Below are positions 3,472 through 49,174 of a stretch of 64,000 nucleotides of DNA, piece by piece (position 1 is the stretch's first letter; the number at the start of each line of letters is the position of its first letter). The stretch covers positions 4,736 through 68,735 of the forward strand of contig CAKOIQ010000002.1 in assembly GCA_934086935.1 (NCBI GenBank), in the 5' to 3' direction. This DNA comes from an uncultured Bacilli bacterium. Its GTDB lineage: Bacteria; Bacillota_I; Bacilli_A; RF39; UBA660. Under the pieces are notes generated by a model that ran no database searches, was not told the origin of the DNA, and worked only from the letters and a program-made list of their open reading frames with translations. Made by a program: the position numbers and the translations under genes.

Positions 3472-4038
3472 TTATTCTGTTACTGTTAATATTGCTTGGA
3501 ATGTTTTATCTAGTTCGGTATTTGTTGCTGATTCATCTAGCCATAATCTTAAATCTAAGGTTTGGCTACTACCAACTGAAAGATAACTATTGGTATAGAT
3601 TGTATAACTTCTAGCAGCATTATCTAGAGTTGGAGTAGCTGTTGTAAATGAGCTTAATAATGCGGTATCTACATTAGTACCAGTCTTACCTATCATAACC
3701 CTAATACTTGAATCACTGGCTATAGTAGTTGTATTTAATATTTCTAGATTAACTTTAGCAGTTGCAGCTGTTGAGCAAACATTTTTTATAGTAAATGTAT
3801 AAGGTACTAAAGCTTTTCCTTCTGTGGTAGGAATTGGATATGTATCCATTAGAGTTATTCCTTCTTCGGAATTTGATATTAAGGTTAGACTTATACATTT
3901 TAAAGTTGTAATTTGATTATATTTGTCTTGTTCACGGTAAGTTCTAATATAAGCATATGAACCTACAGCAAGAGCTACTATAATAACTATTGTTAATCCT
4001 AAGCTTAATATATACATCATTAATTTTTTATTTTTCAT
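3472..4038 (-). CDS. Secreted/membrane-anchored protein with TasA/SipW-cognate-like signal motif (VGSYAYIRTY)
   Basis: N-terminal K-rich region plus hydrophobic stretch ending ...ALAVGSYAYIRTY, resembling the GTxAYFSD motif of TasA/camelysin-type signal peptides. The rest is Thr/Ser-rich and beta-like. Only 11 nt separate it from pdp. Confidence 0.4.
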   Translation of the reverse strand: MKNKKLMMYILSLGLTIVIIVALAVGSYAYIRTYREQDKYNQITTLKCISLTLISNSEEGITLMDTYPIPTTEGKALVPYTFTIKNVCSTAATAKVNLEILNTTTIASDSSIRVMIGKTGTNVDTALLSSFTTATPTLDNAARSYTIYTNSYLSVGSSQTLDLRLWLDESATNTELDKTFQAILTVTE

Positions 4039-13240: not shown

Positions 13241-14313
13241 TTAACTTTTGACAACAAATTTAAGTCCTGAAGGGATGCGGCTACTTGCGTTAAATCTATT
13301 GGCATCTGTTTGTGTGCGTGCATATCCGGTTTTGACACTGCAAGAATAAAACATATCAGACATGTCTTCTACTAAAGAAGTATTAAATGAACTTAAATTT
13401 AAAATGGTTGCTTTTGAACCATTAAACATTCCCGACATAGTTGTTACTTTAGAGGTATCTAAATTTGAAACATCTAAAGTGGTACTTTTATTATAGTTTT
13501 GAAATAATTGACTGGCGGTATTAGCTAAAATAACATTATTATCTTGTCCAATGTAAATTTCATATAGATTATTATTATTTGTAACTAATGTATAAGCCAT
13601 GATGCTACCATTTTGTTTATCACTTACAACCCATGAATCTATGGCATTATTTGGTACTGAAACACTATTTTTAAAGGCAATTGATTCAACTTAATTTCTT
13701 GTGATTGGTCCATTAAATGCAAGAGAATCAGGTTGAGTGCTGTTATTTTTAATGGATATTAAAGAATCATATGGTAAAGCATTACCGTTATCTATTTTGA
13801 TGAAACCAGCATATTTTTTGCCTTAACCACTATTTTGATTTTCGTTAGTTAATTTATAATATATTTTTAAACTATATGAATTAGTTGTTTGTTTGGTTTT
13901 AAATGTTCCAGTACCTAAAAGTACAGAACCTGCTTTAGGAATATTTTCGTTAGTTTTAGAAATTAATGTATCACTCGTATTAGTACTGGTACCAGATAAT
14001 GTATACGTTAAATCGTCAAAATTAAATCCATTAGTTGAAGTTGTTATGTATACATTTCTAAATCAGTGGTATTATTACCGGTTACAGTAAATAATTTATT
14101 AACCCAGGCTTCTTCTTTCGGATAGATATTTTCCATTTTAATAGTACCGGAACCATTGGCATATTTTATTGTCATTTTACCACCTTTAGCAAAGATTGTT
14201 GAGGATGACTCATTGTTACTTACACTTGAAAAATATGCATATGATAGTCCTCCAAAAATCAAACTTATAAATAATCCAATTACTAGTAATACTATTTTTT
14301 GTTTTTTATTCAT
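13241..14313 (-). pseudogene. Decayed paralog of the DUF285 surface-protein gene at 31018-33969 (N-terminal 89-aa and C-terminal 119-aa ORF fragments separated by stops/frameshifts)
   Basis: 14044-14313 encodes MNKKQKIVLLVIGLFISLIFGGLSYAYFSS... (TasA-like signal). 13241-13600 encodes DUF285 repeats plus the conserved tail TGYARTQTDANRFNASSRIPSGLKFVVKS. The intervening 13600-14044 shows DNA similarity to internal parts of the 31018 gene (for example ...ttggtccattaaatgc...) but no intact frame. Several >40-nt runs are identical to 31137-31185. Confidence 0.6.
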
Positions 14314-15445: not shown

Positions 15446-16327
15446 ATGAAAAAATTAATTAGAATTATTTTTATTTTACTGATATTGTTTTTATTTTATG
15501 TAAATAGAGATATGGCTTTTGAGGGTATTATTAGAGGAATTAATTTATGGAATAATTCTTTATTTCCTTCGATATTTCCTATTTTAATTATTAGTGATTT
15601 TATTTTAAGTACTGATCTTGTTTATTATATTAATAGGGTTTGGGGTAATGTTTTTAGGAAGTTGTTTAAGGTTAGTGGTTATGGTTCTTATGTTTTTATT
15701 ATGAGTATGTTTTGTGGGTGTCCTAGTAATGCTAAATATGTTAGTGATTTACTTAATAATAATATTATTAATAAAGATGAGGCTATTAAGATTTTATCTA
15801 TGAGTTTACTTTATAATCCTTTACTTATTATTGCTATTACGCCCTATTTAAGCTTTTCTAAGCAACTTTTAATTATATTTGGTAATCTTGTATGTAATTT
15901 TATTATTGGGCTTTTAAATAGAAATTATAAGGCTAATATTAGTAGTTATAATTATATTAAAAAGAATTTTAATTTGGTTAATTCTATTAGTAATGCGATT
16001 AATACTTTATTACTTATTTTAGGAAGTGTATGTTTATTTATGGGATTATCTTATATTCTTCCATTTAGTCATCCTTTAATAACGGGATTTTTTGAGATTA
16101 CTTCAGGAATTAATATGATTAATTATGTAAGAATTAATGTTTTTTATAAAATTATTTATACAGTTATTATGATGAGTTTTGGAGGATTATCAATTTTAAT
16201 TCAAATAAAAAGCATCTTAAAAGACGCTAATTTAGATTATTCTTTATATTATAAATCAAGAATTATCCATTTAATTTTATTTTTAATTATGATATATGGT
16301 TTTAAATACTTGTTTGGGTGGTTATAG
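15446..16327 (+). CDS. ylbJ: Sporulation integral membrane protein YlbJ (nucleoside-recognition-domain membrane protein)
   Basis: 293-aa polytopic membrane protein with a YlbJ-family pattern, adjacent to ylbL. Confidence 0.6.
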   Translation: MKKLIRIIFILLILFLFYVNRDMAFEGIIRGINLWNNSLFPSIFPILIISDFILSTDLVYYINRVWGNVFRKLFKVSGYGSYVFIMSMFCGCPSNAKYVSDLLNNNIINKDEAIKILSMSLLYNPLLIIAITPYLSFSKQLLIIFGNLVCNFIIGLLNRNYKANISSYNYIKKNFNLVNSISNAINTLLLILGSVCLFMGLSYILPFSHPLITGFFEITSGINMINYVRINVFYKIIYTVIMMSFGGLSILIQIKSILKDANLDYSLYYKSRIIHLILFLIMIYGFKYLFGWL

Positions 16328-17015
16328 AAAATCCAAAGTATGTAGATGCACTTGATTTAAAAATTTGAGCTTTTTCTAATTGAACTTCTGGTGATTCAGT
16401 ATCAGTAAATCTTACACCTAGTGTTGGATAAATATAATTTAACTTGATACTATAATCATTATCATCTGCATCTATAATTGGTACTTTAATAGTTAGTGTA
16501 CAAATGTTATCTGATGCTTTGCAATCATGATTATTTATTTCACCTTTCTTTGTTGAACTTGAAGGTGTTATGCTACTTTCTCTCATTATTTGATAATATC
16601 CTCTTTTATACCCTACTACATTAATTGTTTCTTCACTACTATAATTATATGTGTAGTACAATAGATATCCAATATTATCACTAGTTAAATTTTCATTATA
16701 AATAAATTTTAAACAATATAAATTATCAACATCACTTGGGGGATTAGGTATTATTCTTTTGGTTCCTTGTTGTTTTATTTCTTCGTTATCACACGCATAT
16801 ACTTGTTGAAGATCATATATTCTAAAATCATTTTGAATACTTCTTGTTACTAGAGCTTGATTAATTAATTCTTTTGATGATTTAGCAGTATTATCATTAG
16901 TATTTTTAATAGTTATTAAAGCATTAAATAAAAATATTAAAACTATTGATACTAAAGAAATACTTATGACTATTTCGGTTATAGTTAAACCTTTATTATT
17001 TTTTAATATTTTCAT
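16302..17015 (-). CDS. Type IV pilin-like protein with prepilin-peptidase signal (NKG|LTITE)
   Basis: N-terminal MKILKNNKGLTITEIVISISLVSIVLIFLF has Gly at -1 and Glu at +5 followed by a hydrophobic helix, which is the class III signal of type IV (pseudo)pilins. It is the last gene of the co-oriented Tad gene string. Confidence 0.6.
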   Translation of the reverse strand: MKILKNNKGLTITEIVISISLVSIVLIFLFNALITIKNTNDNTAKSSKELINQALVTRSIQNDFRIYDLQQVYACDNEEIKQQGTKRIIPNPPSDVDNLYCLKFIYNENLTSDNIGYLLYYTYNYSSEETINVVGYKRGYYQIMRESSITPSSSTKKGEINNHDCKASDNICTLTIKVPIIDADDNDYSIKLNYIYPTLGVRFTDTESPEVQLEKAQIFKSSASTYFGFSITTQTSI

Positions 17016-18205
17016 TAGATACTCCTTATTAATTCTTTGGTTTTATTATTATTTGTTTCAATGGCAACTCTTTGACAAACAAATAATAAACAAATTAAAC
17101 TTATATAAAATGATCCTCCATAAGATAAGAATGGAACGGGAACTCCTGTTAATGGGATTAAAGCTAAGACTCCCATAAAATTAATTAATAGATGAATTAA
17201 TATATAGCAAAATGTTCCATAAGCAATATATTTACCTCTAATTGTATTTGATTTGCGTGCTATTTGAAGAAGTCTACTTAACAATATTCCATAACATATT
17301 ATTATGATGGCGCCAACTAAAGCTCCTAGTTCTTCAACTATTATGGGAAATATAAAGTCGGTATGGGCTTCTGGTAAATAAAGATATTTTTGGGTTGAAT
17401 TTCCTAAGCCGACACCAAATAGTCCACCATTATTAATCGCTATAAATCCGTTACATACTTGATAGCCGGTTTCTTTAGTATATCTTGTACAGGGATTTTT
17501 AAAAACAAATCGGCTCATTTGTTCTTTATTTAAAAAGTCTCCGGTTAAAATTATTACTAAACAGACTAATGCCGTTATAATTCCAGCTATTTTTATTTTT
17601 TTGATACTTTGGTTACTATTAGGGATTGCCAAAAATATCATACCAGCAATACATGCAACTATTAAAGCTGTCCCTGCATCAGGTTGCATGGCAATTAATC
17701 CACACCCTATCAAAACTAATATTAAAGGTGTAATTAACTTTTTAATATTAAGTTCATCACGAGAAATGATTTTTTCAAGATAAACTGCTAGATAAACAAT
17801 CATGATGGGTTTTAAAAATTCTGATGGTTGAAAACTAAAGAAACCTAAATTAAACCATGATTTGGCACTATTGGTTATTGCTCCATATGGGATTAACAAG
17901 AAAATAATTAAAATTATACCAATCATAGCTATTGGGGCTAAGACTTTATATTTTTTAGTTGGAAGCCTTAAAAAAAAGATAAAACCTGCTAAAAATGATG
18001 CGATAACAAATAATAATTGTCTTTTAAAAAAATATGATTCTTCAACTTTGTTATAAAGTACAGCAGTAATTGATGAAGCACTAAAAATCATTACTAGTCC
18101 TAAGATAGTAAAGGCAATCATAAGAAAAAATAAAGGTTTATCCATCTTTTGTAATGTATTTTTCACACTTTCACCTACTATGGATATTTTATCATAAAAA
18201 AACAC
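17015..18205 (-). CDS. SEDS-family peptidoglycan glycosyltransferase (FtsW/RodA/SpoVE-like)
   Basis: About 10 TM helices with conserved SEDS segments (PSEFLKP, AMQPDAGTALI, FIAINNGGLFGVGLGNS). Likely start is at MDKPLFF (18142). It is embedded between tadC and the pilin-like gene. Confidence 0.75.
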   Translation of the reverse strand: MFFYDKISIVGESVKNTLQKMDKPLFFLMIAFTILGLVMIFSASSITAVLYNKVEESYFFKRQLLFVIASFLAGFIFFLRLPTKKYKVLAPIAMIGIILIIFLLIPYGAITNSAKSWFNLGFFSFQPSEFLKPIMIVYLAVYLEKIISRDELNIKKLITPLILVLIGCGLIAMQPDAGTALIVACIAGMIFLAIPNSNQSIKKIKIAGIITALVCLVIILTGDFLNKEQMSRFVFKNPCTRYTKETGYQVCNGFIAINNGGLFGVGLGNSTQKYLYLPEAHTDFIFPIIVEELGALVGAIIIICYGILLSRLLQIARKSNTIRGKYIAYGTFCYILIHLLINFMGVLALIPLTGVPVPFLSYGGSFYISLICLLFVCQRVAIETNNNKTKELIRSI

Positions 18206-18222
18206 ATATTTAAATATGTGTT

Positions 18223-18930
18223 TTAAAAGTTTACTGTATTTAACGATTCAATTACTTTTATTATAAGTGGTCCAATGATGATAAGCATAAGTAAAGGGAT
18301 AAATATCAATACACTTACAATACTTATTTTAATTGGCATTTTATTTATCTTACCTTTAGCTTCTAATATGATTTTATCATTTATATAATCTAATTCTCTA
18401 TTTAGTGAATCAATCATGTTATTACCATAAATATTTGATTCCATTAAATTTAAAATTATATTATTTATTGTGTCACTTGGAATTCTAGTTTTTAAATCAT
18501 CTAAACTTTCATTTAAGCTTTTACCTAATGTCATATCTTCCATAGCTTTTTTAAATTCTCTACTTAATTCATTATCCATATTTTTACAAGTTAAATCGAT
18601 TGAGTTTTTTAAATTATTACCTGATTCTAATGTTAAACATAGGATTTGGAAGAAAAATGTTGATTGTTTTTCTAATTTTTTTCTTCTTTTGTTTAAACGA
18701 TAATCAAAGAATAGATACTCAGCTAAGGGAAAATAAATGGCGACAATGATTATACTTTTTAAAAGTGTTGTCTGCATTAAAGCCATTAAAAATATGAATA
18801 AGCTTATTATTAAATGATTACCTAAAATTAAATCAACATTATAATCATGTTCAGCCCCAAATTGTTTATTTTTCTTTTTTATTCTAGCAATTGATTCTTT
18901 GGTATATATTTTATTTACTAAATTTTTCAT
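18223..18930 (-). CDS. tadC: Tad/Flp pilus assembly protein TadC-like (T2SS F domain)
   Basis: 235 aa with two TM segments and a T2SSF-like helical domain. It is downstream of the tadB-like gene. Confidence 0.55.
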   Translation of the reverse strand: MKNLVNKIYTKESIARIKKKNKQFGAEHDYNVDLILGNHLIISLFIFLMALMQTTLLKSIIIVAIYFPLAEYLFFDYRLNKRRKKLEKQSTFFFQILCLTLESGNNLKNSIDLTCKNMDNELSREFKKAMEDMTLGKSLNESLDDLKTRIPSDTINNIILNLMESNIYGNNMIDSLNRELDYINDKIILEAKGKINKMPIKISIVSVLIFIPLLMLIIIGPLIIKVIESLNTVNF

Positions 18931-19922
18931 TATTCAACCCTCAATATCTTTTTTATTATGATGATGTAACTTATATAAAGTAAAACTGCTAGAAGTATAA
19001 TTAAATAACCAATTGGATTTGATAATAATGGTTTAAAATATGTTGGATTTAAAGTATTTAAAAGTATTATTAAAATAATAGGAATTACTAATAGTACATA
19101 ATAGACAAATTTAGAACTACTTGTCATTGAATTTAATTCATCATCTAATCTTTTATTATTAGTAAATGATTTTTCAATATTATTAAAAATACCTACTAAA
19201 TTACCACCAGTTAAATTTAAAAGATTTAAACTACTTGTTATATATTTAGCATCTTCAATTTGAACTCGATCATAAAAGCGATCAAAGACATCTTTTATTT
19301 CCAATCCATATTTAAGATCATTACCTATTCTTTCGAATTCTTCACTGATAGGTCCGGTTAAATCCTTAGTTACAAGTTCAATTGCTTGGGTTATGTTGTA
19401 GCCAGATTTAAAAGCATTATTCATAATTACAATGGCTTTTAATAAATCATTTTCTATTTCTTTATTTCTTTTTGATTCTAAGATATTTAAATAGATATTA
19501 TAAATAAAGAAACTTAAGATTAAAACTAATATCATTATAAATAAATTAAAGGTTCCATTAATTAAATTTACAATTAGATAAAAGGTTCCACACATTAATG
19601 AGATACAGAACTTATTAGATATAATGATTAAAGAATCTAAATAAGATACAGTTGGTTTATGAACATATCTTTCATATTTTTTGGATAACTTTTTATAATA
19701 ATTTCTTTTTGATAGATATTTAGCTATGGAAAGTCTAAATGAACGGTAATTTTCAACGAAATTATCAGCTAATGATTTGGTTTCTGTTTCATTATTTTTT
19801 ACTGTATATTTAGATAATCTATCATTATATTTGATTGTTTTATTTATTTTTACAATTCGATATAGAATAATAAATAAAATTATAGCAGCAATTACTTGAT
19901 AGATTAATATTTCTTTTCTCAT
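18930..19922 (-). CDS. tadB: Tad/Flp pilus assembly protein TadB-like (T2SS F domain)
   Basis: 330 aa with N-terminal and internal TM segments and a GspF/TadB-type domain. Its start overlaps the cpaF stop region. Confidence 0.55.
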   Translation of the reverse strand: MRKEILIYQVIAAIILFIILYRIVKINKTIKYNDRLSKYTVKNNETETKSLADNFVENYRSFRLSIAKYLSKRNYYKKLSKKYERYVHKPTVSYLDSLIIISNKFCISLMCGTFYLIVNLINGTFNLFIMILVLILSFFIYNIYLNILESKRNKEIENDLLKAIVIMNNAFKSGYNITQAIELVTKDLTGPISEEFERIGNDLKYGLEIKDVFDRFYDRVQIEDAKYITSSLNLLNLTGGNLVGIFNNIEKSFTNNKRLDDELNSMTSSSKFVYYVLLVIPIILIILLNTLNPTYFKPLLSNPIGYLIILLAVLLYISYIIIIKKILRVE

Positions 19923-19939
19923 AGCTAATTTCCTTTCTT

Positions 19940-21265
19940 TTATTTTTTAAACATATTGTTTATTTTAGTTATTCCTCTTGAGGTTAAAATTTTATAGACA
20001 TAAGGTTCTTTTTTAGTTTTTATGTATTCTCCAATTTCTTCTCCTTTGTCTGTTAATCCTTTTTGAACAAATTCAAAGATTGGATTTAATTTAATCATGT
20101 CATTATCAAAACCTACTACTTCACTTATATTTGTGATTTTTCTTTTACCATCATGCATTCTTTCGATATTAATAACTAGATTAATGGCGTTTTCTATATA
20201 TTCTCTGATAGCATTAATTGGAATATCCATTCCACTCATTAAAACCATTGTTTCTAAACGATTTAGAGCATCTACTACTCCATTGGCATGTAAGGTAGTA
20301 AGAGAACCATCATGACCAGTATTCATAGCTTGTAGCATATCAAATGCTTCTTTACCACGACATTCACCAACAATGATACGATCTGGTCTCATACGAAGAG
20401 CATTGATTACTAAGTCTCTAATGGTAATAGCTGAATTGTTATTATAGTTTTCAGTTCTTGTTTCTAAACTAATAACATGTTCTTGTTCTAATTTTAATTC
20501 AGCTGCATCTTCAATTGTAATAATACGTTCATTATTACCAATAAAGCTACTTAAGATATTTAAAAGTGTGGTTTTACCAGAACCAGTACCTCCACAAACA
20601 ATAATATTTAGTTTGCCTTGGACAGCTGCTTCTAAAAATGTAGCCATCTCGGCAGTTAAGGTACCTACTCTAAGTAAATCATCAATACTTGTCATATTAC
20701 GTTTAAATTTACGAATGGTGATAACTGGTCCATTGACACTTAGTGGTGGGATAACTGCATTAATACGAGAACCATCAGCAAGTCTTGAATCAACCATAGG
20801 ATTAGATGAATCAATTGTTCTTCCAAGAGGTCCGATTAATCTTTGAATAGTTCTGATGATATGGTCATCATTAATAAATGAAACACTATTGTCTTTGACT
20901 AATTTACCATCAATTTCAACATAGATATCTTTAGGACCATTTACCATAATTTCAGTAATATTATTATCAGTTAAAAGTTCACTAATTGGACCTAGTCCAT
21001 TAATTTCATCATCAATTAAATTAAAGATATGACTTCTTTCAATGTTACTTAAATCATACCCTTCTAAGCATTCATCAATATTTTCATTAATGAATTCTTC
21101 CATGTCTCTTCCTTCAGGAACTTCTTTATCAATTAGATGTTCAATGATTTTCTTTCTTAACTCATCTAATAATTTTTTATCTGGAAAGACATCATAATCT
21201 GTAAGAGGTGTTTCTTTAATATTTTTATTTTGAAAGTTAAATATTTCTGTTAATGTTTTACTCAT
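19940..21265 (-). CDS. cpaF: Tad/Flp pilus assembly ATPase CpaF/TadA (VirB11-family)
   Basis: 441 aa with Walker [13 protein letters not shown], a Walker B/Asp box and His box (HANGVVDAL) typical of CpaF/TadA secretion ATPases. Confidence 0.8.
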
Positions 21266-22031
21266 TGTTACCTCCTACAATATCAGTGGCAATTGTATTA
21301 AATATTTTATAATCTTTAAAATTACTATTTTTAATACAGATTATTTCACCATCTAAAGTTAAACTATCCATGTTTTTAATATGAAAATCTTTACTAATTA
21401 TATAATCAATATCAATACCAAGAATATTTTTAATATCATATAGTGAAAAATAATCTTTATCAGGATTAACACTATTATTTAAGATTAATTTATATTTTTT
21501 AATGTTATTATCATCGAAAATGTTTAACATATTTTTTAAGTTTTTTAGTGAGATTGGATCATTTGATGTCATGAAATAAACGATATTGCATTTATCTAAG
21601 GCAAAAACATTAATTTGATCTAATGAATGAGTTGTATCAATTAAGATTACATCAAATAAGTAATAACATTCATCAATTAAAATATCGATATATTTAGGAT
21701 CAATTTTATTTGCTTGTCTTGGATCTTTTGGTGCGGCTACAAATGAGATATTTTCATTATATTTAATTAAGTAATTTTCAATATCATCAAATCTATTATT
21801 GTTATAATCGTCACAGAAATTATAAATTGATTTAGTAAGGTTTGCATTTAATGAACAAGCAATGGCTCCATTGGATAAGTCTAAATCAATTATTAATACT
21901 TTTTTATTTAAATTAGATAATGTTCCCGCTAAATTAAGAATAAAAGTAGTTTTACCTATTCCTCCTTTAGCTCCGTACACACATATGCTTTTCCCCTTTG
22001 CCATGTTATTCCTCGATTTCTTTCTCAACAA
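21258..22031 (-). CDS. ParA/MinD-like ATPase, TadZ/CpaE-like
   Basis: 257 aa with a deviant Walker A (VYGAKGGIGKTT) characteristic of ParA/MinD. Its position between the tadE genes and cpaF fits TadZ/CpaE. Confidence 0.6.
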   Translation of the reverse strand: MLRKKSRNNMAKGKSICVYGAKGGIGKTTFILNLAGTLSNLNKKVLIIDLDLSNGAIACSLNANLTKSIYNFCDDYNNNRFDDIENYLIKYNENISFVAAPKDPRQANKIDPKYIDILIDECYYLFDVILIDTTHSLDQINVFALDKCNIVYFMTSNDPISLKNLKNMLNIFDDNNIKKYKLILNNSVNPDKDYFSLYDIKNILGIDIDYIISKDFHIKNMDSLTLDGEIICIKNSNFKDYKIFNTIATDIVGGNNE

Positions 22032-22398
22032 TAATTATTTCGTCATTTTCTTTATGTGCTTCAATATTTATTTGAGTACGATAACTTTTAATACCTAAAA
22101 CATTTCCAAAAAAACTTGGATATGAATGGCTATTATATATTTTTAAAGTGGTTCCATCATATGATGCATTTAACATATCAGTATCGTATTTATTTTTTTC
22201 ATATAAATTTTTAACTTCAGTTACTTTATCTGCATAACTGTTAGTTAAAACTTCTTTGGCTATTTCTTTTGATACTAAATTATATCTATTATTAGCAATG
22301 ATTATCATGACATTATCGTATACAAAAGCTAAAACAATAAAGATAATTGGTATTAAAACAATGAATAATGCCCCACTTTGTCCACGATTATTTCTCAT
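22006..22398 (-). CDS. TadE-like pseudopilin
   Basis: N-terminal RGQSGALFIVLIPIIFIVLAF is a TadE-type prepilin-like signal with a hydrophobic helix. Confidence 0.5.
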   Translation of the reverse strand: MRNNRGQSGALFIVLIPIIFIVLAFVYDNVMIIIANNRYNLVSKEIAKEVLTNSYADKVTEVKNLYEKNKYDTDMLNASYDGTTLKIYNSHSYPSFFGNVLGIKSYRTQINIEAHKENDEIIIVEKEIEE

Positions 22399-22747
22399 TT
22401 AAAATCACTCTTTCAGTTTTAATTTTATAAGGATTACCTAAGATACTACTTAATCCAGGAGTAATAAATTCATAGTTATCGGTTATTTCTAAGTATGAAT
22501 ATTTAGCATCTTTATTACTTTTAAATGTTGCTGTTTTTAAATCTTTTTGAATAAATTTAGTAATATTTTCATCAGATTCATTTTCGTTATAAAGTTTAAT
22601 AATATCTGGCATTTTACTTTCAGCGTTGTTTTTATGGCTAAAAATTATCATAGTATCAACTAATCCCATTATTATAAAAATAATAACAGGGAGAATAATA
22701 ACAAATTCAACTAATGCTTGACCACGTTTATTCTTCATTGTTATCAC
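22388..22747 (-). CDS. TadE-like pseudopilin
   Basis: MKNKRGQALVEFVIILPVIIFIIMGLVD is the canonical TadE/TadG N-terminal motif (G|QALVE, with E at +5). Confidence 0.65.
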   Translation of the reverse strand: MITMKNKRGQALVEFVIILPVIIFIIMGLVDTMIIFSHKNNAESKMPDIIKLYNENESDENITKFIQKDLKTATFKSNKDAKYSYLEITDNYEFITPGLSSILGNPYKIKTERVILNEK

Positions 22748-22827: not shown

Positions 22828-23193
22828 TTATTTAGAATAAAAATAACTTGTACAATAAGTATTACCTTTAGTTATATTACTAACATATAATATCCATTGA
22901 CTACCATTCCATGATGCAGACGTTTGAACACTATTGTTAACTGCTCCATCTGTACGACAATAAATAGTAACATTATAATTACTAGATGCTGGATAACTAT
23001 TGCTAATTACATTATCAATATAAACAGCCATTAGTTTATCATCATCTTGTTTTAATTCAATTTTATTTTCTTTGACACTTTTTTTATTTAAATATTTACC
23101 ATATGAAGCAAGCATAAAACATAAACCACTTAATATTAATAAAGTCACGATAAAATAAGTATATAATTTATCTTTATGTTTCATATTAGTCAC
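22828..23193 (-). CDS. Membrane-anchored hypothetical protein upstream of the Tad operon
   Basis: 121 aa with an N-terminal TM and a Ser/Asn/Tyr-rich extracellular part. A hairpin (aagtgagtaaaactcactt, about 22785-22806) separates it from tadE. Confidence 0.35.
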   Translation of the reverse strand: MTNMKHKDKLYTYFIVTLLILSGLCFMLASYGKYLNKKSVKENKIELKQDDDKLMAVYIDNVISNSYPASSNYNVTIYCRTDGAVNNSVQTSASWNGSQWILYVSNITKGNTYCTSYFYSK

Positions 23194-27242: not shown

Positions 27243-27758
27243 TTATTTTGTTAATCCATTCTCTGTGATATAAGAATCGATTTCAGTAACTCTTTGTGAA
27301 TAAAGTGTTTTATCTCCAGCAGTATCACTTTGATAATTTTTATTACCTGCTGGTGCTACTGCTAAACATTCAGCGTTAAGTTGTTCCTCATTACAAGTAG
27401 TTTTTTTCCATGCTTCTAATTGATCATATGATCTTGCAGAAGCAGCATAGTCACTATTATAGAAATAAACAGTATAGTTATCACCATTAACTGCTACATA
27501 TCCAGTATATTGTCCAGTTGATTTAGCTAAATCTTTAAAACTATAAGCAGATTGAACTGGTTTACCATCTAAAGCATCACCTTGTGCTTTACTCATGGCA
27601 GCTGTAATCATTTTTTGACCATACATTACAAATGCACTCTTCTTTGCTGAGTTCATACTGTCAATTACTGTTGGAATAGCAATAACCATAATAACAGCTA
27701 AAACTACAATAACTGCAAGTAATTCTACTAATGTAAAACCTTTCTTATTTAACTTCAT
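27243..27758 (-). CDS. Type IV pilin (prepilin-type N-terminal cleavage/methylation domain)
   Basis: MKLNKKGFTLVELLAVIVVLAVIMVIAIP is the canonical KGFTLVE class III signal. The 171-aa size fits a major pilin or ComGC-like pilin. A hairpin terminator lies at 27215-27238. Confidence 0.8.
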   Translation of the reverse strand: MKLNKKGFTLVELLAVIVVLAVIMVIAIPTVIDSMNSAKKSAFVMYGQKMITAAMSKAQGDALDGKPVQSAYSFKDLAKSTGQYTGYVAVNGDNYTVYFYNSDYAASARSYDQLEAWKKTTCNEEQLNAECLAVAPAGNKNYQSDTAGDKTLYSQRVTEIDSYITENGLTK

Positions 27759-30943: not shown

Positions 30944-31017
30944 TTTCTATCACCTATGTCTGATTATAACATAAAATCTAGGATTTTCCCAATAAAAAAG
31001 TAAGATAGCTCTTACTT

Positions 31018-33969
31018 TTAAGATTTAACAACAAATGTTAGACCAGATGGTGTTCCACTACTTGCAGCATTAAAATTATCTGCATCTGTTTGGGTACGTG
31101 CATATCCGGTTGTTGCTTTACTTCCAGAAAACATCTCTGACATGTCTTCTACTAAAGAAGTATTAAATGAACTTAAATCCAATGTTGTTGCGGCACTTTC
31201 ATAAAACATATATGACATATATATAACATTGCTTGTATCAAAACTACTTAAATCTAATGTTGTTGCTTTACTTCCATTAAACATCTCTGACATGTCTTCT
31301 ACTAAAGAAGTATTAAATGAACTTAAATCTAATGTTGTTGCTTTACTTCCAGAAAACATAGATGACATATCATTAACATTACTTGTATCAAAACTACTTA
31401 AATCTAATGAGGTTGCGGCACTAGAATTAAACATTCGTGTCATACTAGTTACTTTTGATGTATTAAATTGATTAAGTCCTTTGATTTCGGTTGCTGCATT
31501 ATAATCAAACATAGAACCCATATTTGTTACTTTTGAGGTATCAAAATTGCTTAAATCTAAACTTGTTGCGACACTATAAGAAAACATGTCTGACATATCA
31601 GCAACATTCGAAGTATTAAATTGATTAAGTCCTTTGATTTCTGTTGCGGCACTGTCAAAAAACATCCAGGACATATCGGTTACTTTTGAGGTATTGAAAT
31701 TACTTAAATCCAATGAGGTTGCTTTACTTCCAGTAAACATATGTGACATATCGGTTACTTTTGTGGTTTTAAGATTAGATAAATCTATGCTTTCTAATTT
31801 GGTATAATATCCAAACATGTATGATGCATTAGATCCAACTATTACTCCATTATCTTGACCAATGTAAAGTTCATATAAGCTATCATTATCTTCATCTAAG
31901 GTATATGCCATAATTGCTCCGTTGTGTTTTGCACCGGCATCCCAGGAAGCTATCGCATTACTTGGTACAATGTTTGTATTTTTAATAACAATCTTTTCTA
32001 CTTGATTTTTGGTTATTGGTCCATTAAATGCTTTTGATGTTGCTGCTTTTGCAGTATCTTGTGCAATTAATGTATCGTTTGCAATTATTATATATGGATT
32101 GCTGACTGTGCCATCTCCACCACTTATTATAGTGTCTGATTTTAAAGCAATAACTGGACGATATGCTACATTGTTGCTTGTTGAAATTGTTGGAGTAACA
32201 TAATTATTCTTTATTCCATAAACAGATGGAGTAGAATTTTTATAATCAGCTGGGGTTATTGTATAATATGCATAATTATTTGCTGCTGACGAATATAAAT
32301 AACTTTTGTTGTTACCAATATATGCTTTATCATAGCCAATTGATAATCCAGCAAATAAGGCTTCATCTGCTGTTAACATTCCAACCTTTGATTTTAGACC
32401 TGTTGTAACAGATGCGTTTCTATATGAAGGACTCGTTTCACTATAATTTCCAATTTGTGGAGTTGACGATACGACTAAACCTCCAGATGGACAACTATAT
32501 GTTGGGTTTGGTATGTTGTTGTTATAAGATTTATTAAATTTTTGAAGTCCTGAAAATGCAATGCTATTGACATTGTCATATAATGTTGGATTATAGTTTT
32601 TATTTCTGATTGAAGTATCATTACAATAAATTATATCTTCTAAATAGTCATTATAGTTTGATAGATTGTTTGTAGCCCAGGTGGACAAGACAGTTTCTGC
32701 ATTGCTTCCCTTAAAATCTGAAGTTGCAGCGGTTCCATAAGTTCCTGTTTGAACTGTACCGGAATTTTTTATAAATGGATTACTAGATGAACAACTTGAT
32801 CCATCCCCATTTTCTAATACTAATTTTATAGCTCCATTACCCATTACTCTGACAATTCTCCAACATTTGCCGGCAAATTGAACATAATTATTTTGAACAT
32901 TGCCTCTAAAATAGTATGAGACACTGTATTCGTCTGGTTCTGATGACATGATTGCTTCATCACTACTTAGTTCTGATGATTTAGTTTGATATGAATAATA
33001 CATATAATATGTTGAATTATCAGAACCTACTTGAACATCATTTACGTAGAATACGTCACCGTTTTCATTATCAAAGGATATGTATTTTCCTTTTAGTGTT
33101 CCTTGTAAATTAGTATTTGATAAAACTAATGACGTAGGATTGGATAAAGAATATGTTCCATTAACATTTTTAGTTCTGGAAGCACTGTAATAAATAGTTT
33201 TTCCAGCAATTGATGATAAATCTGCTTTATGCACAGTTCCATCATTTATAGTTGTTGATGCGACTACTGCTGATGGTTCTAATCCTGGAGTGGATACAGG
33301 AGTTTGTACCTTATTTGCTTTATTATTTCTTAGGGCGTAAAGTAACGTTCCATCTTCTGAACTATACCAATTGCTAGGTGCGGCAAAGTTGGCCTTACTC
33401 CATGTTACGATTGTACCAACTACAGCAAGGTTTGCTTCAAATTTTTGGTTAATCATTGTATTATCTGAAACTGCTATAATAATATTCATGCGATAGGTTT
33501 GAGTTCCGTTTGCTGGTAAAAAATCTGTATATACTCCAGACATTTGTAAACCGGTATCGGTAGTTATTGTAGGTGCAGATGATAATAATAGTGCGCGTTC
33601 TAAATTATATTCATTAACTCTGTTAACAGCTATTTGAATTTTATTCGTTGCTATGGTTGTCGTACTTTTATTTTGAACGCCAATATCAATTTTTATATCA
33701 CGTGAGCATTTATTTGTTACTTTAAAAGTATAATAGTCACCATCATTCCATAAGCTATTAAAATTAGTGCTACGATCTACACTTTTACTTATGACATGGT
33801 TATCACTTTCAAATTTAATTGTTGCACAATCTGTTGTTTTTAATAAATGTTCTTTGCTATCAGTTCCTGTAACAGAAAAATAGGCATATGAAGTACCTGC
33901 TAATAGAATAATGGCAAATAAAATGCTGCATAATAAAATAAGTTTATTTTTTAAGATAGCTTTTTCCAT
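31018..33969 (-). CDS. Large secreted DUF285-repeat surface protein with TasA/SipW-cognate-like signal peptide
   Basis: 983 aa. The N-terminus MEKAILKNKLILLCSILFAIILLAGTSYAYFSVTGTD resembles the TasA/camelysin-type signal. A long Ser/Thr/Asn-rich beta-rich region follows, then 11 or more tandem DUF285-type repeats (LDLSNFNTSKVTDMSWMF...). It ends with the conserved tail TGYARTQTDADNFNAASSGTPSGLTFVVKS. A hairpin terminator lies at about 30990-31015. Confidence 0.75.
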   Translation of the reverse strand: MEKAILKNKLILLCSILFAIILLAGTSYAYFSVTGTDSKEHLLKTTDCATIKFESDNHVISKSVDRSTNFNSLWNDGDYYTFKVTNKCSRDIKIDIGVQNKSTTTIATNKIQIAVNRVNEYNLERALLLSSAPTITTDTGLQMSGVYTDFLPANGTQTYRMNIIIAVSDNTMINQKFEANLAVVGTIVTWSKANFAAPSNWYSSEDGTLLYALRNNKANKVQTPVSTPGLEPSAVVASTTINDGTVHKADLSSIAGKTIYYSASRTKNVNGTYSLSNPTSLVLSNTNLQGTLKGKYISFDNENGDVFYVNDVQVGSDNSTYYMYYSYQTKSSELSSDEAIMSSEPDEYSVSYYFRGNVQNNYVQFAGKCWRIVRVMGNGAIKLVLENGDGSSCSSSNPFIKNSGTVQTGTYGTAATSDFKGSNAETVLSTWATNNLSNYNDYLEDIIYCNDTSIRNKNYNPTLYDNVNSIAFSGLQKFNKSYNNNIPNPTYSCPSGGLVVSSTPQIGNYSETSPSYRNASVTTGLKSKVGMLTADEALFAGLSIGYDKAYIGNNKSYLYSSAANNYAYYTITPADYKNSTPSVYGIKNNYVTPTISTSNNVAYRPVIALKSDTIISGGDGTVSNPYIIIANDTLIAQDTAKAATSKAFNGPITKNQVEKIVIKNTNIVPSNAIASWDAGAKHNGAIMAYTLDEDNDSLYELYIGQDNGVIVGSNASYMFGYYTKLESIDLSNLKTTKVTDMSHMFTGSKATSLDLSNFNTSKVTDMSWMFFDSAATEIKGLNQFNTSNVADMSDMFSYSVATSLDLSNFDTSKVTNMGSMFDYNAATEIKGLNQFNTSKVTSMTRMFNSSAATSLDLSSFDTSNVNDMSSMFSGSKATTLDLSSFNTSLVEDMSEMFNGSKATTLDLSSFDTSNVIYMSYMFYESAATTLDLSSFNTSLVEDMSEMFSGSKATTGYARTQTDADNFNAASSGTPSGLTFVVKS
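31100..31833 (-). repeat. Intragenic tandem DNA repeats encoding DUF285 units (about 141-nt / 47-aa double-unit period)
   Basis: For example, gacatgtcttctactaaagaagtattaaatgaacttaaat recurs at 31140 and 31281 (141-nt offset), and further degenerate copies extend through 31830. Confidence 0.7.
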
Positions 33970-47778: not shown

Positions 47779-47942
47779 TTTTCATCCTCTTTTCTGATTA
47801 AAGTTTAGCAAGATTAATTATTATTTTAAACACACTTATGGTTTACTTCAAGAAAAAAACATTTTTAAAGTATTTCATTTTAATTTATTATTAGCTAATT
47901 CTTACTAAATCACACCAAAAAAGACGTTATTAAAACGTCTAA

Positions 47943-48308
47943 TTATGATTTTACTACAAATGTTAGACCAGATGATTTATTACTACTTGCATTAAATTTA
48001 TCTGCATCTGTTTGTGTACGTGCATATCCGGTTGTTGCACTAATATTTTGAAACATATTTGACATATTTGTTACCATAATTGAATATGATGCCGCAGCAT
48101 TTCCAGTATTTTTTACTGTAAATGTTTTGGAATCACTCCATCCTGGATAGATAGTTGCTCCTATAATTTGCTTTGAACCATCAGTATATGTTACCTCTAG
48201 ATTACCTGCTCTACTTATGATACTACTACCTTCATCTCCATTATCAATTACTGCTGTATAAAATGCATAACTTATACCAATAAAAGCAATTAATAAAAAA
48301 ACTATCAA
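47943..48308 (-). CDS. Short secreted TasA-like protein; internally deleted paralog of the DUF285 surface protein (signal + TasA-like start + one partial DUF285 unit + conserved tail)
   Basis: MIVFLLIAFIGISYAFYTAVIDNGDEGSSIISRAGNLEVTYTDGS...ATIYPGWSDSKTFTVKNTGNAAASYSIMVTNMSNMFQNISATTGYARTQTDADKFNASSNKSSGLTFVVKS. Its 3' ~100 nt are near-identical to 31018-31115. It lies 3 nt downstream of murB, and a terminator hairpin sits at 47916-47942. Confidence 0.6.
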   Translation of the reverse strand: MIVFLLIAFIGISYAFYTAVIDNGDEGSSIISRAGNLEVTYTDGSKQIIGATIYPGWSDSKTFTVKNTGNAAASYSIMVTNMSNMFQNISATTGYARTQTDADKFNASSNKSSGLTFVVKS

Positions 48309-48310
48309 TG

Positions 48311-49174
48311 TTAATTAATAATTTTTTGTTCAAGAATTAAATCTATATTATATTTATTTTTTACTTCTTTTGTAATGAAATTAATTAAAGACGTAATGTC
48401 TTTACTAGTGGCATTTCCGGTATTTACGATGAAATTGGCATGTTTAGTTGAAACCATTGCTCCACCTATTTGATAACCTTTTAAACCTAAATCTTCAATT
48501 AATTTACCAGCAAATAAACCTTCAGGATTTCTAAAAACTGAACCAGCATTTGGATATTCTAGAGGTTGAGTTGATAATCTTTTGTCTAAACGTTCTTTTA
48601 CTAGTGTTAATGATTCCTCTTTAGAACCAGGTTTTAAAGTTAAAGTAGCTTTTAAAATAATTAAGTCTCTAGTTTGTAAGTTGGAAGTTCGATATGAAAA
48701 AGATAAATCATTTTTCTTAATTATCTTTACTTTATTATTTTCCAAAACTTCTAATTCTGTTACATAGTTAGATATTTCATCTTTATAAGCACCGGCATTT
48801 CCGACAATTGAAGCACCTAAAGTTCCAGGAATACCACTAGCCCACTCTAAACCTGTTAGATTATGATTTATAGATTCGTTAGCTAAGTTAATAAGTAGAT
48901 TAGAAGCTCCAGATATAATAGTATTTTTATTAATAGTTAATTCTTTAAAATCTAATTTGATAACTATTCCTTTATAACGATCTGGTAAAATTATATTAGA
49001 ACCATTACCTAAAATAAAATATTTTTTATTATTATCTTTTAAATATTTAATTAAGTTAGTTAATTTCACAACATTATCAACAATTATTAAATAGTCACAT
49101 ATAGAGTGAATTTTATAAGTATTATAAGCATATAAATCTTGTTTTTTAAATACTTTTCCATAGTTAGAATACAT
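48311..49174 (-). CDS. murB: UDP-N-acetylenolpyruvoylglucosamine reductase
   Basis: 287 aa with the FAD-binding domain (FILGNGSNIIL) and C-terminal NAGSVFRNPEG of MurB. Confidence 0.8.
   Translation of the reverse strand: MYSNYGKVFKKQDLYAYNTYKIHSICDYLIIVDNVVKLTNLIKYLKDNNKKYFILGNGSNIILPDRYKGIVIKLDFKELTINKNTIISGASNLLINLANESINHNLTGLEWASGIPGTLGASIVGNAGAYKDEISNYVTELEVLENNKVKIIKKNDLSFSYRTSNLQTRDLIILKATLTLKPGSKEESLTLVKERLDKRLSTQPLEYPNAGSVFRNPEGLFAGKLIEDLGLKGYQIGGAMVSTKHANFIVNTGNATSKDITSLINFITKEVKNKYNIDLILEQKIIN

What the first reader, a model, noticed from the sequence alone, without database searches (positions are those of the whole stretch)
31018..33969. Giant DUF285-repeat surface protein with TasA/SipW-type signal; its 3' module is duplicated at DNA level in two other loci
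The 983-aa protein starts with a TasA/camelysin-like signal (..LAGTSYAYFS) and ends with 11 or more DUF285 repeats. DUF285 is a Mycoplasma/Firmicute surface-protein repeat. The last ~100 nt, encoding TGYARTQTDA..FNASS...SGL.FVVKS, recur nearly identically at 47943-48045 and 13241-13345. Internal 40-45-nt stretches (gacatgtcttctactaaagaagtattaaatgaacttaaat) are identical between 31140, 31281 and 13356. So there is one full-length gene plus one minimal in-frame derivative and one decayed copy sharing both 5' (signal) and 3' ends. This layout is typical of recombination-driven surface variation, with donor and acceptor cassettes, or of recent gene conversion.
Basis: seen in the sequence. Interest (0 to 1): 0.65.

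Follow-up and report, generated by a model that had tools for sequence, protein, structure and literature searches.

The report
Scattered, recombining repeat surface-protein gene family
The 983-residue gene belongs to a scattered family of repeat-bearing secreted proteins (DUF285/PARCEL type) in an uncultured low-GC gut spore-former; the stretch shared by three loci is mostly the family's conserved structural end-cap, and the real variation comes from ordinary recombination and decay among family members, not from a dedicated cassette system.

Summary
The anatomy is largely real. There is a 983-aa ORF at 31018-33969(-) with a GTSYA|YF signal, about 10 DUF285/PARCEL repeats and a 36-aa tail. 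There is a 121-aa mini ORF at 47943-48308 and a decayed copy at 13241-14313.

"Nearly identical" is overstated: the 3' ~100 nt are 87% and 77% identical. That segment is a conserved solenoid cap, found at 74-86% aa identity in other genera on other N-termini. The pseudogene's cap shares no more codons with the others than codon usage predicts.

The two small loci do not derive from the big gene. The 13241 locus is a freshly inactivated allele of a 436-aa gene that is intact in another strain. The mini is a 5'-truncated, internally deleted copy of a 1070-aa paralog seen in another contig (about 99% nt over about 240 nt).

Recombination is nevertheless evident:
- The C-terminal module is a sharply bounded strain-level hypervariable segment (62-82% against 97-100% flanks).
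- It is mosaic with a paralog.
- A 40-nt exact patch links the pseudogene and the big gene.
- One strain lost one repeat between 31-nt direct repeats.

Verdict: a new member of the known PARCEL/drp kind of family evolving by birth, death and gene conversion. There is no evidence for programmed cassette switching.

The parts
31018..33969 (-). Big gene, 983 aa: signal + TasA-like N-domain + conserved about 430-aa middle domain + PARCEL/DUF285 module
   Evidence: ORF. DUF285 E=1.7e-74. PARCEL repeat TIGR02167 E=2e-50. The exact protein is in public data as P0185.
33883..33969 (-). Signal peptide (aa 1-29) ending GTSYA|YF, which resembles the TasA/SipW type with an aromatic residue at P2'
   Evidence: Sequence. 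TIGR04088 does not hit the big protein and scores 13.4 bits against a cutoff of 19 on the paralog N-terminus. TasA has Phe at P2' and needs SipW (PMC10269814 abstract).
33409..33831 (-). N-terminal beta-sandwich domain (aa about 47-187), TasA/bundling-pilin-like fold
   Evidence: AF2 core model has pLDDT about 70-80 here. Best Foldseek PDB hit is 7ueg_A, an archaeal bundling pilus: E=1.2e-3, prob 0.97. This is weak evidence.
32086..33371 (-). Conserved middle domain (aa about 200-628; invariant Cys369/393/449/493, CWRIVRV motif). This is the ancestral end of the gene.
   Evidence: Homologs of 625-650 aa cover only aa 1 to about 630. The syntenic 645-aa ortholog in the sister species ends at ...NPYVISGV. 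No Pfam hit.
31813..32085 (-). Linker plus N-terminal cap of the solenoid (aa 629-719). This is the start of the strain-hypervariable segment.
   Evidence: Identity to strain L001 drops from 93-98% to 75-82% here. AF2 tail model mean pLDDT 97.5. Mosaic with the yqeY-adjacent paralog, including the 31864-31825 run of 13 sites.
31129..31812 (-). Nine 25/26-aa PARCEL/DUF285 repeats (LRR-like solenoid)
   Evidence: Unit table. TRF. AF2. Foldseek hits BspA-type LRR 4fd0 and InlJ 3bz5.
31018..31128 (-). C-terminal cap SGSKATTGYARTQTDADNFNAASSGTPSGLTFVVKS plus stop. This is the '3' module' shared with the other loci.
   Evidence: Strand-helix-strand in the AF2 model. Conserved across genera. Codon test.
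31279..31329 (-). 51-nt exact internal repeat (partner 31129-31179). 40 nt of it (31289-31328 and 31139-31178) are identical to 13359-13398.
31246..31351 (-). Two 31-nt exact direct repeats (31321-31351 and 31246-31276) that bound the 75-nt repeat deletion seen in strain L020
33970..34024 (-). Own promoter-like site (TTGACT, 17 nt, TG-TATTCT) and RBS GGGAAGGATAGGGA upstream of the ATG
   Evidence: This is a consensus match only.
30992..31017 (-). Terminator-like hairpin AAGTAAGA-GCTA-TCTTACTT followed by a T-run
   Evidence: read by eye. The scanner found none because the stem has too few G-C pairs.
13241..14313 (-). Pseudogene: the mutS-adjacent family member (TasA-like type B N-domain + PARCEL module). 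Lesions are a 10-nt deletion near 14053, CAA>TAA at 13825 and 13693, and in-frame repeat deletions of 153 nt (about 13460) and 75 nt (about 13357).
   Evidence: Three-frame reading. Intact 436-aa allele P0188 at the same ylbL-X-mutS position in another strain. Lesion list.
13359..13398 (-). 40-nt patch (LSSFNTSLVEDMS) identical to two units of the big gene
   Evidence: The unit is ancestral at this locus (L016, L018) and absent from the big gene of strain L001.
47943..48308 (-). Mini ORF, 121 aa: a 5'-truncated, internally deleted copy of a paralog. The junction lies at the VTN|M microhomology. It has a TTG start 2 nt after the murB stop and no charged n-region.
   Evidence: The stretch 48302 to about 48064 is about 99% nt identical to the 5' end of the HU-adjacent 1070-aa gene (L008). 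The same structure appears in three assemblies. Strain differences are 4 nonsynonymous to 1 synonymous.
47905..47940 (-). Terminator-like hairpin AGACGTT-TTAAT-AACGTCT followed by a T-run, after the mini ORF
   Evidence: read by eye.
3472..4038 (-). 188-aa stand-alone paralog of the big protein's N-terminal domain (signal ...AVGSYAYI)
   Evidence: tblastn gives 25% identity over aa 6-183, E=1e-3. blastp gives E=3e-6.
22828..23193 (-). 121-aa shrunken relative of a 569-aa family member (type C N-domain + middle domain) present at this position in the sister species

Best explanation
The gene is one member of a dispersed multigene family of secreted, modular proteins. The host is an uncultured, endospore-forming Bacillota with about 25% GC, seen in gut metagenome assemblies.

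Each member combines up to three parts:
- one of three TasA-like N-terminal signal/beta-sandwich modules;
- optionally a conserved about 430-aa Cys-containing middle domain;
- optionally a C-terminal PARCEL/DUF285 module. This module consists of a linker, an N-cap, a variable number of 25-aa LRR-like repeats, and a conserved about 30-aa strand-helix-strand C-cap.

The ~100 nt shared by the three window loci encode that C-cap. They are alike mainly because the cap is under strong purifying selection in an AT-rich genome with biased codon usage.

Shown: the family evolves by birth and death plus homologous and illegitimate recombination.
(1) The PARCEL module was grafted onto an ancestrally 645-aa gene.
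(2) Between strains, the module is replaced or patched by gene conversion from paralogs.
(3) Repeats are gained and lost by slippage or unequal exchange between 28-51-nt exact repeats.
(4) Members are inactivated (the mutS-adjacent pseudogene) or reduced to fragments by microhomology deletions (the murB-adjacent mini ORF).

Inferred: the proteins are exported. The TasA-like N-domain mounts them on, or polymerises them into, a fibre. The PARCEL solenoid is a variable binding surface whose strain-specific diversity is selected by host, phage or community interactions.
For: Family and cap:
- DUF285/PARCEL hits.
- High-confidence solenoid with a structured cap. LRR-type fold matches.
- The cap is 74-86% aa identical in DUF285 proteins of other taxa. 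It also sits on prepilin-type N-termini in a GTDB Bacilli MAG.
- Cross-genus cap DNA is 66-80% identical to the window caps. The pseudogene cap is 75-77% identical to the other two, with 13/24 and 13/23 shared codons against about 11.5 expected.

Module graft:
- Most homologs, and the syntenic 645-aa ortholog in the sister species, lack the module.

Strain hypervariability:
- Flanks are 97-100% and the core 90-100% identical, but the module is 62-82%, with sharp edges.
- At protein level the core is 94.4% and the tail 71.5% identical.

Paralog exchange:
- The window tail is 81% identical to the yqeY-adjacent paralog, against 75% to its own ortholog.
- 43 informative sites match the paralog and 32 the ortholog, with a run of 13 paralog-type sites (p about 0.01).
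- The 40-nt exact patch lies in flanks of about 70% identity. The unit is ancestral in the mutS-adjacent gene and absent from the other strain's big gene.

Repeat slippage:
- P0186/L020 is 100% identical except for a 75-nt deletion between 31-nt direct repeats.

Decay:
- Lesion list against the intact allele.
- The mini is about 99% identical to the HU-adjacent gene's 5' end. It is truncated inside the signal peptide and joined at the GTAACAAATAT microhomology. Its strain differences are 4 nonsynonymous to 1 synonymous.

Other members:
- Additional members occur in contigs from the same samples.

N-domain:
- Peptidase_M73/camelysin Pfam hits are on record for many relatives. The match here is weak.
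- The best fold hit is a TasA-like bundling pilin.
Against: - Secretion, surface or fibre location and binding function are untested.
- The signal does not reach the curated TIGR04088 threshold. No SipW-type peptidase was seen; the only signal peptidase found in a related contig is the bacterial type. The whole genome could not be searched.
- The paralog comparisons use another strain's yqeY-adjacent gene. The HU-adjacent gene is known only from a contig of the same metagenome sample, so its belonging to the same genome is inferred, not proven.
- The direction and timing of the 40-nt conversion are inferred by parsimony from three genomes.
- The 75-nt length variant comes from a short-read assembly.
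- The core structure model has only moderate confidence (pLDDT 69).
Confidence: 0.72

Rival explanations
1. This is a programmed antigenic- or phase-variation system. The big gene is the expression site. The promoterless mini ORF and the pseudogene are silent donor cassettes that are copied into it by unidirectional gene conversion, as in pilE/pilS, vlsE or MgPa.
For: - A 40-nt patch is identical between the pseudogene and two units of the big gene.
- The mini ORF lacks the 5' end of the signal peptide and any obvious RBS, as silent cassettes do.
- The module is hypervariable between strains.
- Silent drp/PARCEL ORFs were proposed as sequence reservoirs in mycoplasmas (PMC2824730; PMC2996958).
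Against: - The two 'donors' hold almost no variable sequence. The mini has one partial repeat plus the cap, and the pseudogene has two repeats.
- The pseudogene is a recently broken allele of a gene that is intact, and at the same position, in another strain and in the sister species.
- The caps are 77-87% identical, not homogenised, and synonymous sites between the pseudogene and the others are saturated.
- The big gene of L020 is 100% identical to the window's except for one slippage event, while its downstream flank (parC side) is 98-99% identical and its upstream flank 99-100%. So there is no rapid switching between these samples.
- No cassette array turned up in any contig examined, and no recombinase-type Pfam label appears in the syntenic annotations. 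No dedicated search for a recombinase was run.
Confidence: 0.07
2. There has been no recombination at all. The loci are old paralogs, and every shared block is explained by purifying selection on a repeat-and-cap protein fold plus AT-biased codon usage.
For: - The pseudogene's cap shares no more codons with the other caps than chance predicts.
- Cap DNA from unrelated genomes is 66-80% identical to the window's caps.
- The cap is structurally defined.
Against: - 13 consecutive identical codons (40 nt) lie in flanks of about 70% identity.
- Big vs mini caps share 21/25 codons against 12.4 expected.
- The mini's 5' part is about 99% identical to another paralog.
- The hypervariable block is sharply bounded between strains whose flanks are 97-100% identical.
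- The mosaic run has p about 0.01.
Confidence: 0.08
3. The mini ORF and the length variants are metagenome-assembly artefacts, produced by collapse or chimeric joins across repeats.
For: All sequences come from short-read metagenome assemblies. Repeats of 28-51 nt are present.
Against: - The mini, with identical junctions, occurs in at least three independent assemblies, flanked by murB.
- The repeats are much shorter than the final assembly k-mers suggested by the k141/k119 contig names.
- The pseudogene lesions include point nonsense mutations, which are not assembly-type errors.
Confidence: 0.05

Closest known systems
PARCEL (Palindromic Amphipathic Repeat Coding ELement) proteins = Pfam DUF285 / NCBIfam TIGR02167 (Roske et al. 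2010, PMC2996958)
   Same: - 25-residue tandem repeats in variable numbers.
- Attachment to assorted membrane- or secretion-targeting N-termini.
- Dispersed copies, untargeted or truncated ORFs, and duplication, rearrangement and decay within genomes.
- The window repeats hit the family models strongly.
   Different: - Here the carriers are TasA-like signal/beta-sandwich modules and a large conserved middle domain, in a cell-walled endospore-former. They are not lipoproteins of wall-less Mollicutes.
- No association with ICEs or IS elements was seen in the loci examined.
- The dyad symmetry stressed in that paper was not evident in a simple inverted-repeat scan.
Mycoplasma agalactiae drp (DUF285-related protein) family (Nouvel et al. 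2010, PMC2824730)
   Same: - Scattered chromosomal family of about a dozen members.
- The loci are among the most variable regions between two strains.
- Strain-specific pseudogenes.
- Silent copies proposed as a sequence reservoir rather than a phase-variation system.
   Different: - A different phylum-level lineage and a different targeting signal (lipobox there, TasA-like signal here).
- That study inferred reservoir use. Here a specific 40-nt conversion patch, a mosaic run and a microhomology deletion are mapped.
- Expression is unknown here.
TasA / camelysin (Peptidase_M73) and archaeal bundling pilins, exported with SipW-type signals
   Same: - N-terminal G-T-x-A|x-F cleavage-type motif with an aromatic residue at P2'.
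- Beta-sandwich domain directly after the signal. The best fold match is a TasA-like bundling pilin.
- Peptidase_M73 Pfam hits are on record for relatives of the type-B members.
   Different: - Matches here fall below curated thresholds.
- No tapA-sipW-tasA-like operon and no SipW were found in the available contigs.
- TasA has no C-terminal repeat module.
BspA-type / internalin-type LRR surface proteins (for example PDB 4fd0, 4fdw, InlJ 3bz5)
   Same: A curved solenoid of short repeats with N- and C-terminal caps, in predicted cell-surface proteins.
   Different: Only a distant structural match (E=2e-3, TM about 0.3). The repeat consensus differs (F-[DN]-T-S-x-V-x-x-M-x-x-M-F), and there is no LPXTG or GW anchoring module.
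Silent-cassette gene conversion systems (Neisseria pilE/pilS, Borrelia vlsE, Mycoplasma genitalium MgPa/MgPar)
   Same: Promoterless partial copies exist, and short conversion tracts into an expressed gene are detectable.
   Different: - The partial copies here carry conserved rather than variable sequence.
- They are recent decay products of independent genes.
- Identity between 'donor' and 'acceptor' is low outside one 40-nt patch.
- There is no cassette array.

Membership tests
PARCEL / DUF285 repeat proteins | Tandem 25-residue repeats matching the family HMMs | tested here: met
   PF03382 E=1.7e-74, 247.6 bits against cutoff 25. TIGR02167 167.8 bits against cutoff 30, 7 stretches. 75-nt period x 8.9 copies.
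PARCEL / DUF285 repeat proteins | Variable number of repeats between related genes or strains | tested here: met
   Alleles of 983, 958 and 1008 aa within one species. 436 aa against a shortened pseudogene.
PARCEL / DUF285 repeat proteins | Dyad symmetry (palindromic character) of the coding DNA | tested here: inconclusive
   Antisense ORFs lie inside the array, but the inverted-repeat scan found only two 15-nt, 80% pairs. The paper's own palindrome method was not reproduced.
PARCEL / DUF285 repeat proteins | Attachment to a membrane- or secretion-targeting sequence | tested here: met
   Hydrophobic N-terminal signal in the big gene, in the intact alleles and in paralogs. Prepilin-type signals in other genomes. 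Actual export was not tested.
TasA / SipW-dependent secreted proteins | SipW-cognate signal peptide (TIGR04088) | tested here: not met
   No hit for the big protein. 13.4 bits against cutoff 19 for the pseudogene's N-terminus. The motif GTSYA|YF resembles TasA's GTWA|AF by eye only.
TasA / SipW-dependent secreted proteins | TasA/camelysin (Peptidase_M73) domain after the signal | tested here: inconclusive
   PF12389 scores 19.2 bits against cutoff 22.5 on the 14044-14313 fragment. Precomputed PF12389 hits exist in more distant type-B relatives. Foldseek top hit is the TasA-like pilin 7ueg_A at E=1.2e-3. There is no PDB sequence hit.
TasA / SipW-dependent secreted proteins | A SipW (archaeal/ER-type) signal peptidase encoded in the genome, usually adjacent | not testable with these tools
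   None was seen in the window's syntenic annotations. The one S26 peptidase seen in a same-species contig is the bacterial type (TIGR02227 at 153 bits; TIGR02228 at 19.9 against cutoff 51.85). The rest of the genome is unavailable.
Silent-cassette antigenic variation systems | One expression site plus multiple promoterless cassettes that carry the variable segments | tested here: not met
   The two short loci carry at most two repeats. They are decay products of independent genes. Other members are intact genes.
Silent-cassette antigenic variation systems | High-frequency segmental replacement visible within a population | not testable with these tools
   Only consensus assemblies are available. 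The L020 allele is identical apart from one slippage event.
LRR-type solenoid with terminal caps | Regular solenoid with structured N- and C-caps that shield the hydrophobic core | tested here: met
   AF2 model with mean pLDDT 97.5 and pTM 0.92. The C-cap is strand 324-327, helix 330-338 and strand 348-351. This is a prediction only.

The most novel reading that the evidence does not exclude
PARCEL solenoids are interchangeable 'heads' that are moved by ectopic gene conversion between subunits of different extracellular filaments. In this genome the carriers are TasA-like fibre subunits. In related Bacilli they are type IV pilin-like proteins. Broken or promoterless family members would still serve as sequence donors. 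A gut spore-former could then re-tool the binding tips of its fibres strain by strain, without any dedicated switching machinery.
Probability: 0.15. Interest if true: 0.6.

Novelty: new member of a known kind. Interest (0 to 1): 0.33.

Why it matters
The result shows how a little-studied repeat family (DUF285/PARCEL) diversifies in an uncultured gut Bacillota, with breakpoints resolved to the nucleotide. The events mapped are a module graft onto a conserved gene, patchy conversion between paralogs, repeat slippage, and fragment formation by microhomology.

The pairing of PARCEL modules with TasA-like N-terminal domains, and elsewhere with pilin-like ones, suggests that they are displayed on filaments. 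That idea is testable and could assign a role to thousands of unannotated proteins.

It is also a caution for genome scans. A conserved solenoid cap in an AT-rich genome can look like a DNA-level duplication.

Tried and rejected
- UGA-as-Trp or other recoding of the pseudogene: rejected. Both in-frame stops are TAA, arising from CAA in the intact allele.
- Mini ORF as an ortholog conserved in other species: no murB-adjacent homolog was found. All N-terminal relatives of the mini map to HU-adjacent genes.
- T7 tract at the mini's 5' end as a phase-variation switch: an alternative frame gives MNKKLL..., but this overlaps the murB C-terminus. The homology to the parent gene starts only inside the h-region. 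I treat it as coincidence.
- Genome-wide scan for the cap DNA pattern: only 5 stretches were found, and the window's own species was not among them. The organism could therefore not be named.
- PDB sequence searches with family profiles: no hits.
- SipW search: only a bacterial-type SPase I was found, in a related contig.
- PHROG scan of small cap-bearing proteins: it matched only their repeat parts, so a phage origin for their N-termini is not shown.
- Strong inverted repeats in the array: not found.


Full report
**1. Observation**

The ORF at 31018-33969(-) encodes 983 aa and begins MEKAILKNKLILLCSILFAIILLAGTSYAYFS. Pfam DUF285 matches at E=1.7e-74. NCBIfam TIGR02167, 'PARCEL repeat-containing surface protein', matches at E=2e-50 in 7 stretches. 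TRF finds a 75-nt period x 8.9 copies and a 150-nt double unit x 2.1 copies at 91%.

Cutting the protein at the MF motif gives nine canonical 25/26-aa units, aa 720-947. They are preceded by a degenerate unit and followed by a 36-aa tail, SGSKATTGYARTQTDADNFNAASSGTPSGLTFVVKS.

Inside the big gene the exact repeat is 51 nt long.

The 3' ~100 nt are less alike than claimed. Big vs 47943-48045 is 87% over 99 nt. Big vs 13241 onwards is 77% over 178 nt.

The gene has its own promoter-like site and RBS, and AT-rich terminator-like hairpins on both sides.

**2. The shared 3' segment is a conserved structural cap**

An AlphaFold model of aa 631-983, built on 54 sequences, has mean pLDDT 97.5 and pTM 0.92. 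It shows a regular solenoid. Its last about 30 residues form a strand (TGYA), a helix (QTDADNFNA) and a strand (FVVK), at pLDDT 89-94. The nearest solved folds are BspA-type LRR proteins (4fd0, 4fdw) and InlJ, and they are only distant matches.

A search with the mini ORF returned dozens of DUF285 proteins whose only similarity is the last about 43 residues, at 74-86% identity. One is annotated from Atopostipes.

A codon-degenerate DNA pattern for TGYARTQTDA found the same cap in a GTDB 'uncultured Bacilli bacterium'. There it sits on three proteins with prepilin-type N-termini.

In a codon-level test:
- The pseudogene's cap shares 13/24 and 13/23 synonymous-capable codons with the other two caps, against about 11.5 expected from the window's codon usage.
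- Its 75-77% nt identity lies within the 66-80% seen between the window's caps and those of unrelated genomes.
- Big vs mini caps share 21/25 codons against 12.4 expected. That indicates common descent. It is about the same as big vs its own allele in another strain (20/25).

**3. What the three loci are**

(a) *The big gene.* Most of the homologs listed (best 120 of 648) are 625-650 aa and cover only aa 1 to about 630. In a sister species with about 80-90% nt identity, the gene at the same place (rpmA-X-parC-like) is 645 aa and ends ...ISGGNGTASNPYVISGV. The linker, array and cap are therefore a lineage-specific C-terminal graft.

(b) *The 13241-14313 locus.* Contigs L001, L016 and L021 from another sample are 96-99% nt identical to the window in the flanks. 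They represent another strain of the same species. In that strain the ylbL-X-mutS position holds an intact 436-aa gene, P0188. Relative to it, the window copy carries five lesions:
- a 10-nt deletion that shifts the frame, near 14053;
- two CAA>TAA nonsense changes, at 13825 and 13693;
- in-frame losses of 153 nt and 75 nt of repeats.

It is a recent pseudogene of an independent family member, not a derivative of the big gene. Its N-terminal domain is of a different type, 'B'. It gives a weak Peptidase_M73 match of 19.2 bits, and many relatives carry precomputed PF12389 hits.

(c) *The mini ORF.* Its first about 240 nt (48302 to about 48064) are about 99% identical to the 5' end of a 1070-aa gene next to the HU gene. 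That gene lies in a contig (L008) from the same metagenome sample that also yielded a 99.9% copy of the window.
- The homology starts inside the signal peptide's hydrophobic region.
- The ORF therefore lacks the charged n-region. It starts at a TTG 2 nt after the murB stop, with no RBS.
- The homology ends at GTAACAAATAT. There a strand of the TasA-like domain (SIMVTNIT) resembles a repeat (SKVTNMS). From that point the last half-repeat and the cap follow.
- The mini is thus a 5'-truncated, internally deleted partial copy, joined at a microhomology.
- The same structure occurs in three assemblies.
- Between strains it has 4 nonsynonymous and 1 synonymous change in 366 nt. The adjacent murB has 1 and 3 in 674 nt. 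This is consistent with relaxed constraint, though the numbers are small.

**4. Evidence that recombination does shape the family**

(i) *Strain-level hypervariable block.* Between the two strains, identity is 97-100% in the flanks and 90-100% in the core. It falls to 62-82% from about 32120 to about 31080 and returns to 94-100% at the end of the cap. At protein level the core is 94.4% and the tail 71.5% identical.

(ii) *Similarity to a paralog.* The window's module is closer to a paralog of the other strain than to its positional ortholog. The paralog is the yqeY-adjacent P0248: 81% over 768 nt, against 75% for the ortholog. In the unambiguously aligned linker, N-cap and first-repeat region, 43 informative sites follow the paralog and 32 the ortholog. 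There is a run of 13 paralog-type sites at 31864-31825 (permutation p about 0.01).

(iii) *The 40-nt patch.* The unit ...LSSFNTSLVEDMS.MF is present in the mutS-adjacent gene of both strains and of the sister species. It is absent from the other strain's big gene. It occurs twice in the window's big gene, as a 40-nt exact patch in flanks of about 70% identity. The most parsimonious reading is a short conversion tract from the mutS-adjacent member, or a like paralog, into the big gene, followed by a 150-nt tandem duplication.

(iv) *Repeat slippage.* Allele P0186/L020 is 2877/2877 nt identical to the window's gene except for a 75-nt deletion bounded by 31-nt exact direct repeats.

**5. Family context**

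Contigs of the same species, or from the same samples, hold further members:
- a split 135 + 119-aa copy between smc and spoIIP;
- the 1070-aa HU-adjacent gene;
- the 544-aa yqeY-adjacent gene with a third N-domain type;
- a 612-aa gene with an untargeted 247-aa PARCEL ORF beside it.

Within the window, 3472-4038 encodes a stand-alone copy of the big protein's N-domain. The ORF at 22828-23193 is a shrunken relative of a 569-aa member of the sister species.

The family is modular: N-domain type A, B or C, with or without the middle domain, with or without the PARCEL module. Members are scattered singly among housekeeping genes.

**6. Mechanism and function**

*Shown:* the anatomy above, the recombination footprints, and the predicted cap structure.

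*Inferred:* export through the N-terminal signal. The GTSYA|YF motif resembles TasA's cleavage site, with an aromatic residue at P2' (PMC10269814 abstract). It fails the curated TIGR04088 threshold, however, and no SipW was found.

The domain after the signal is a beta-sandwich. Its best PDB match is a TasA-like archaeal bundling pilin: E=1.2e-3, from a model of moderate confidence. The same PARCEL module sits on pilin-type N-termini elsewhere. My working model is therefore a filament-mounted, variable binding solenoid. This is unproven.

**7. Comparison with what is known**

The closest precedents are PARCELs (PMC2996958) and the M. agalactiae drp family (PMC2824730). Those papers describe:
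- variable-number 25-residue repeats on assorted targeting sequences;
- scattered copies;
- strain-specific pseudogenes;
- untargeted ORFs proposed as reservoirs for recombination.

The present case fits this kind in a different host, with different carrier domains. It does not fit silent-cassette systems. The short loci carry conserved rather than variable sequence and are recent decay products, and no cassette array was seen in the contigs examined.

A full-text search found no paper linking DUF285/PARCEL with TasA/SipW. The architecture is nevertheless common in sequence databases: 2115 hits at E<=1e-5 to the reconstructed type-B protein, although many of these may match only the repeat module.

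**8. Verdict**

This is a new member of a known kind, of modest interest. Its value lies mainly in the cleanly resolved recombination events and in the filament-display hypothesis.

Noticed in passing
window 16302-22747 (-), also 27243-27758 (-): A Tad-type pilus locus: two TadE-like genes, a ParA/TadZ-like gene, a CpaF/TadA-type ATPase and two TadB/C-like membrane proteins. Prepilin-like (N_methyl) genes lie nearby. The Pfam labels are taken from syntenic contigs of the same species.
   Followed up: partly
window 22828-23193 (-); L002 11019-12728: A 121-aa ORF after efp is a shrunken relative of a 569-aa gene at the same position in the sister species (39% identity in two blocks). The larger gene combines a third type of N-domain, shared with P0248, with the CWRI(L/V)RV middle domain.
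   Followed up: partly
window 3472-4038 (-): A 188-aa stand-alone protein lies between a pyrimidine-nucleoside phosphorylase gene and rplS. It is homologous to the N-terminal domain of the big protein (25% identity) and has a similar signal motif (AVGSYAYI). It has no Pfam or NCBIfam hit.
   Followed up: partly
L018 3880-5895 (sister species): An extra 671-aa 'type B N-domain + middle domain' family member lies between ylbL and the mutS-adjacent PARCEL gene in the sister species. The window has only a short intergenic gap there.
   Followed up: no
L022 547-1290 and 1485-3323: An untargeted 247-aa PARCEL ORF with no signal, starting inside the N-cap, lies directly upstream of an intact 612-aa family member. 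The contig comes from the same samples as the window's strain.
   Followed up: no
L014 (contig binned as Bacteroides helcogenes): A 2.5-kb contig of 25% GC encodes a prepilin-type PARCEL protein with the same cap. Its GC content makes mis-binning likely.
   Followed up: no
window 31229-31471 (+) and 13362-13496 (+): Open antisense frames run through the repeat arrays. This is reminiscent of the dyad symmetry reported for PARCEL coding DNA, but a simple inverted-repeat scan found nothing strong.
   Followed up: partly
window 48291-48333: A T7 tract lies at the very start of the mini ORF. An alternative frame there starts TTG-AAC-AAA-AAA (MNKKLL...) and overlaps the murB stop. It is probably coincidental, but it could alter the N-terminus by slippage.
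   Followed up: partly
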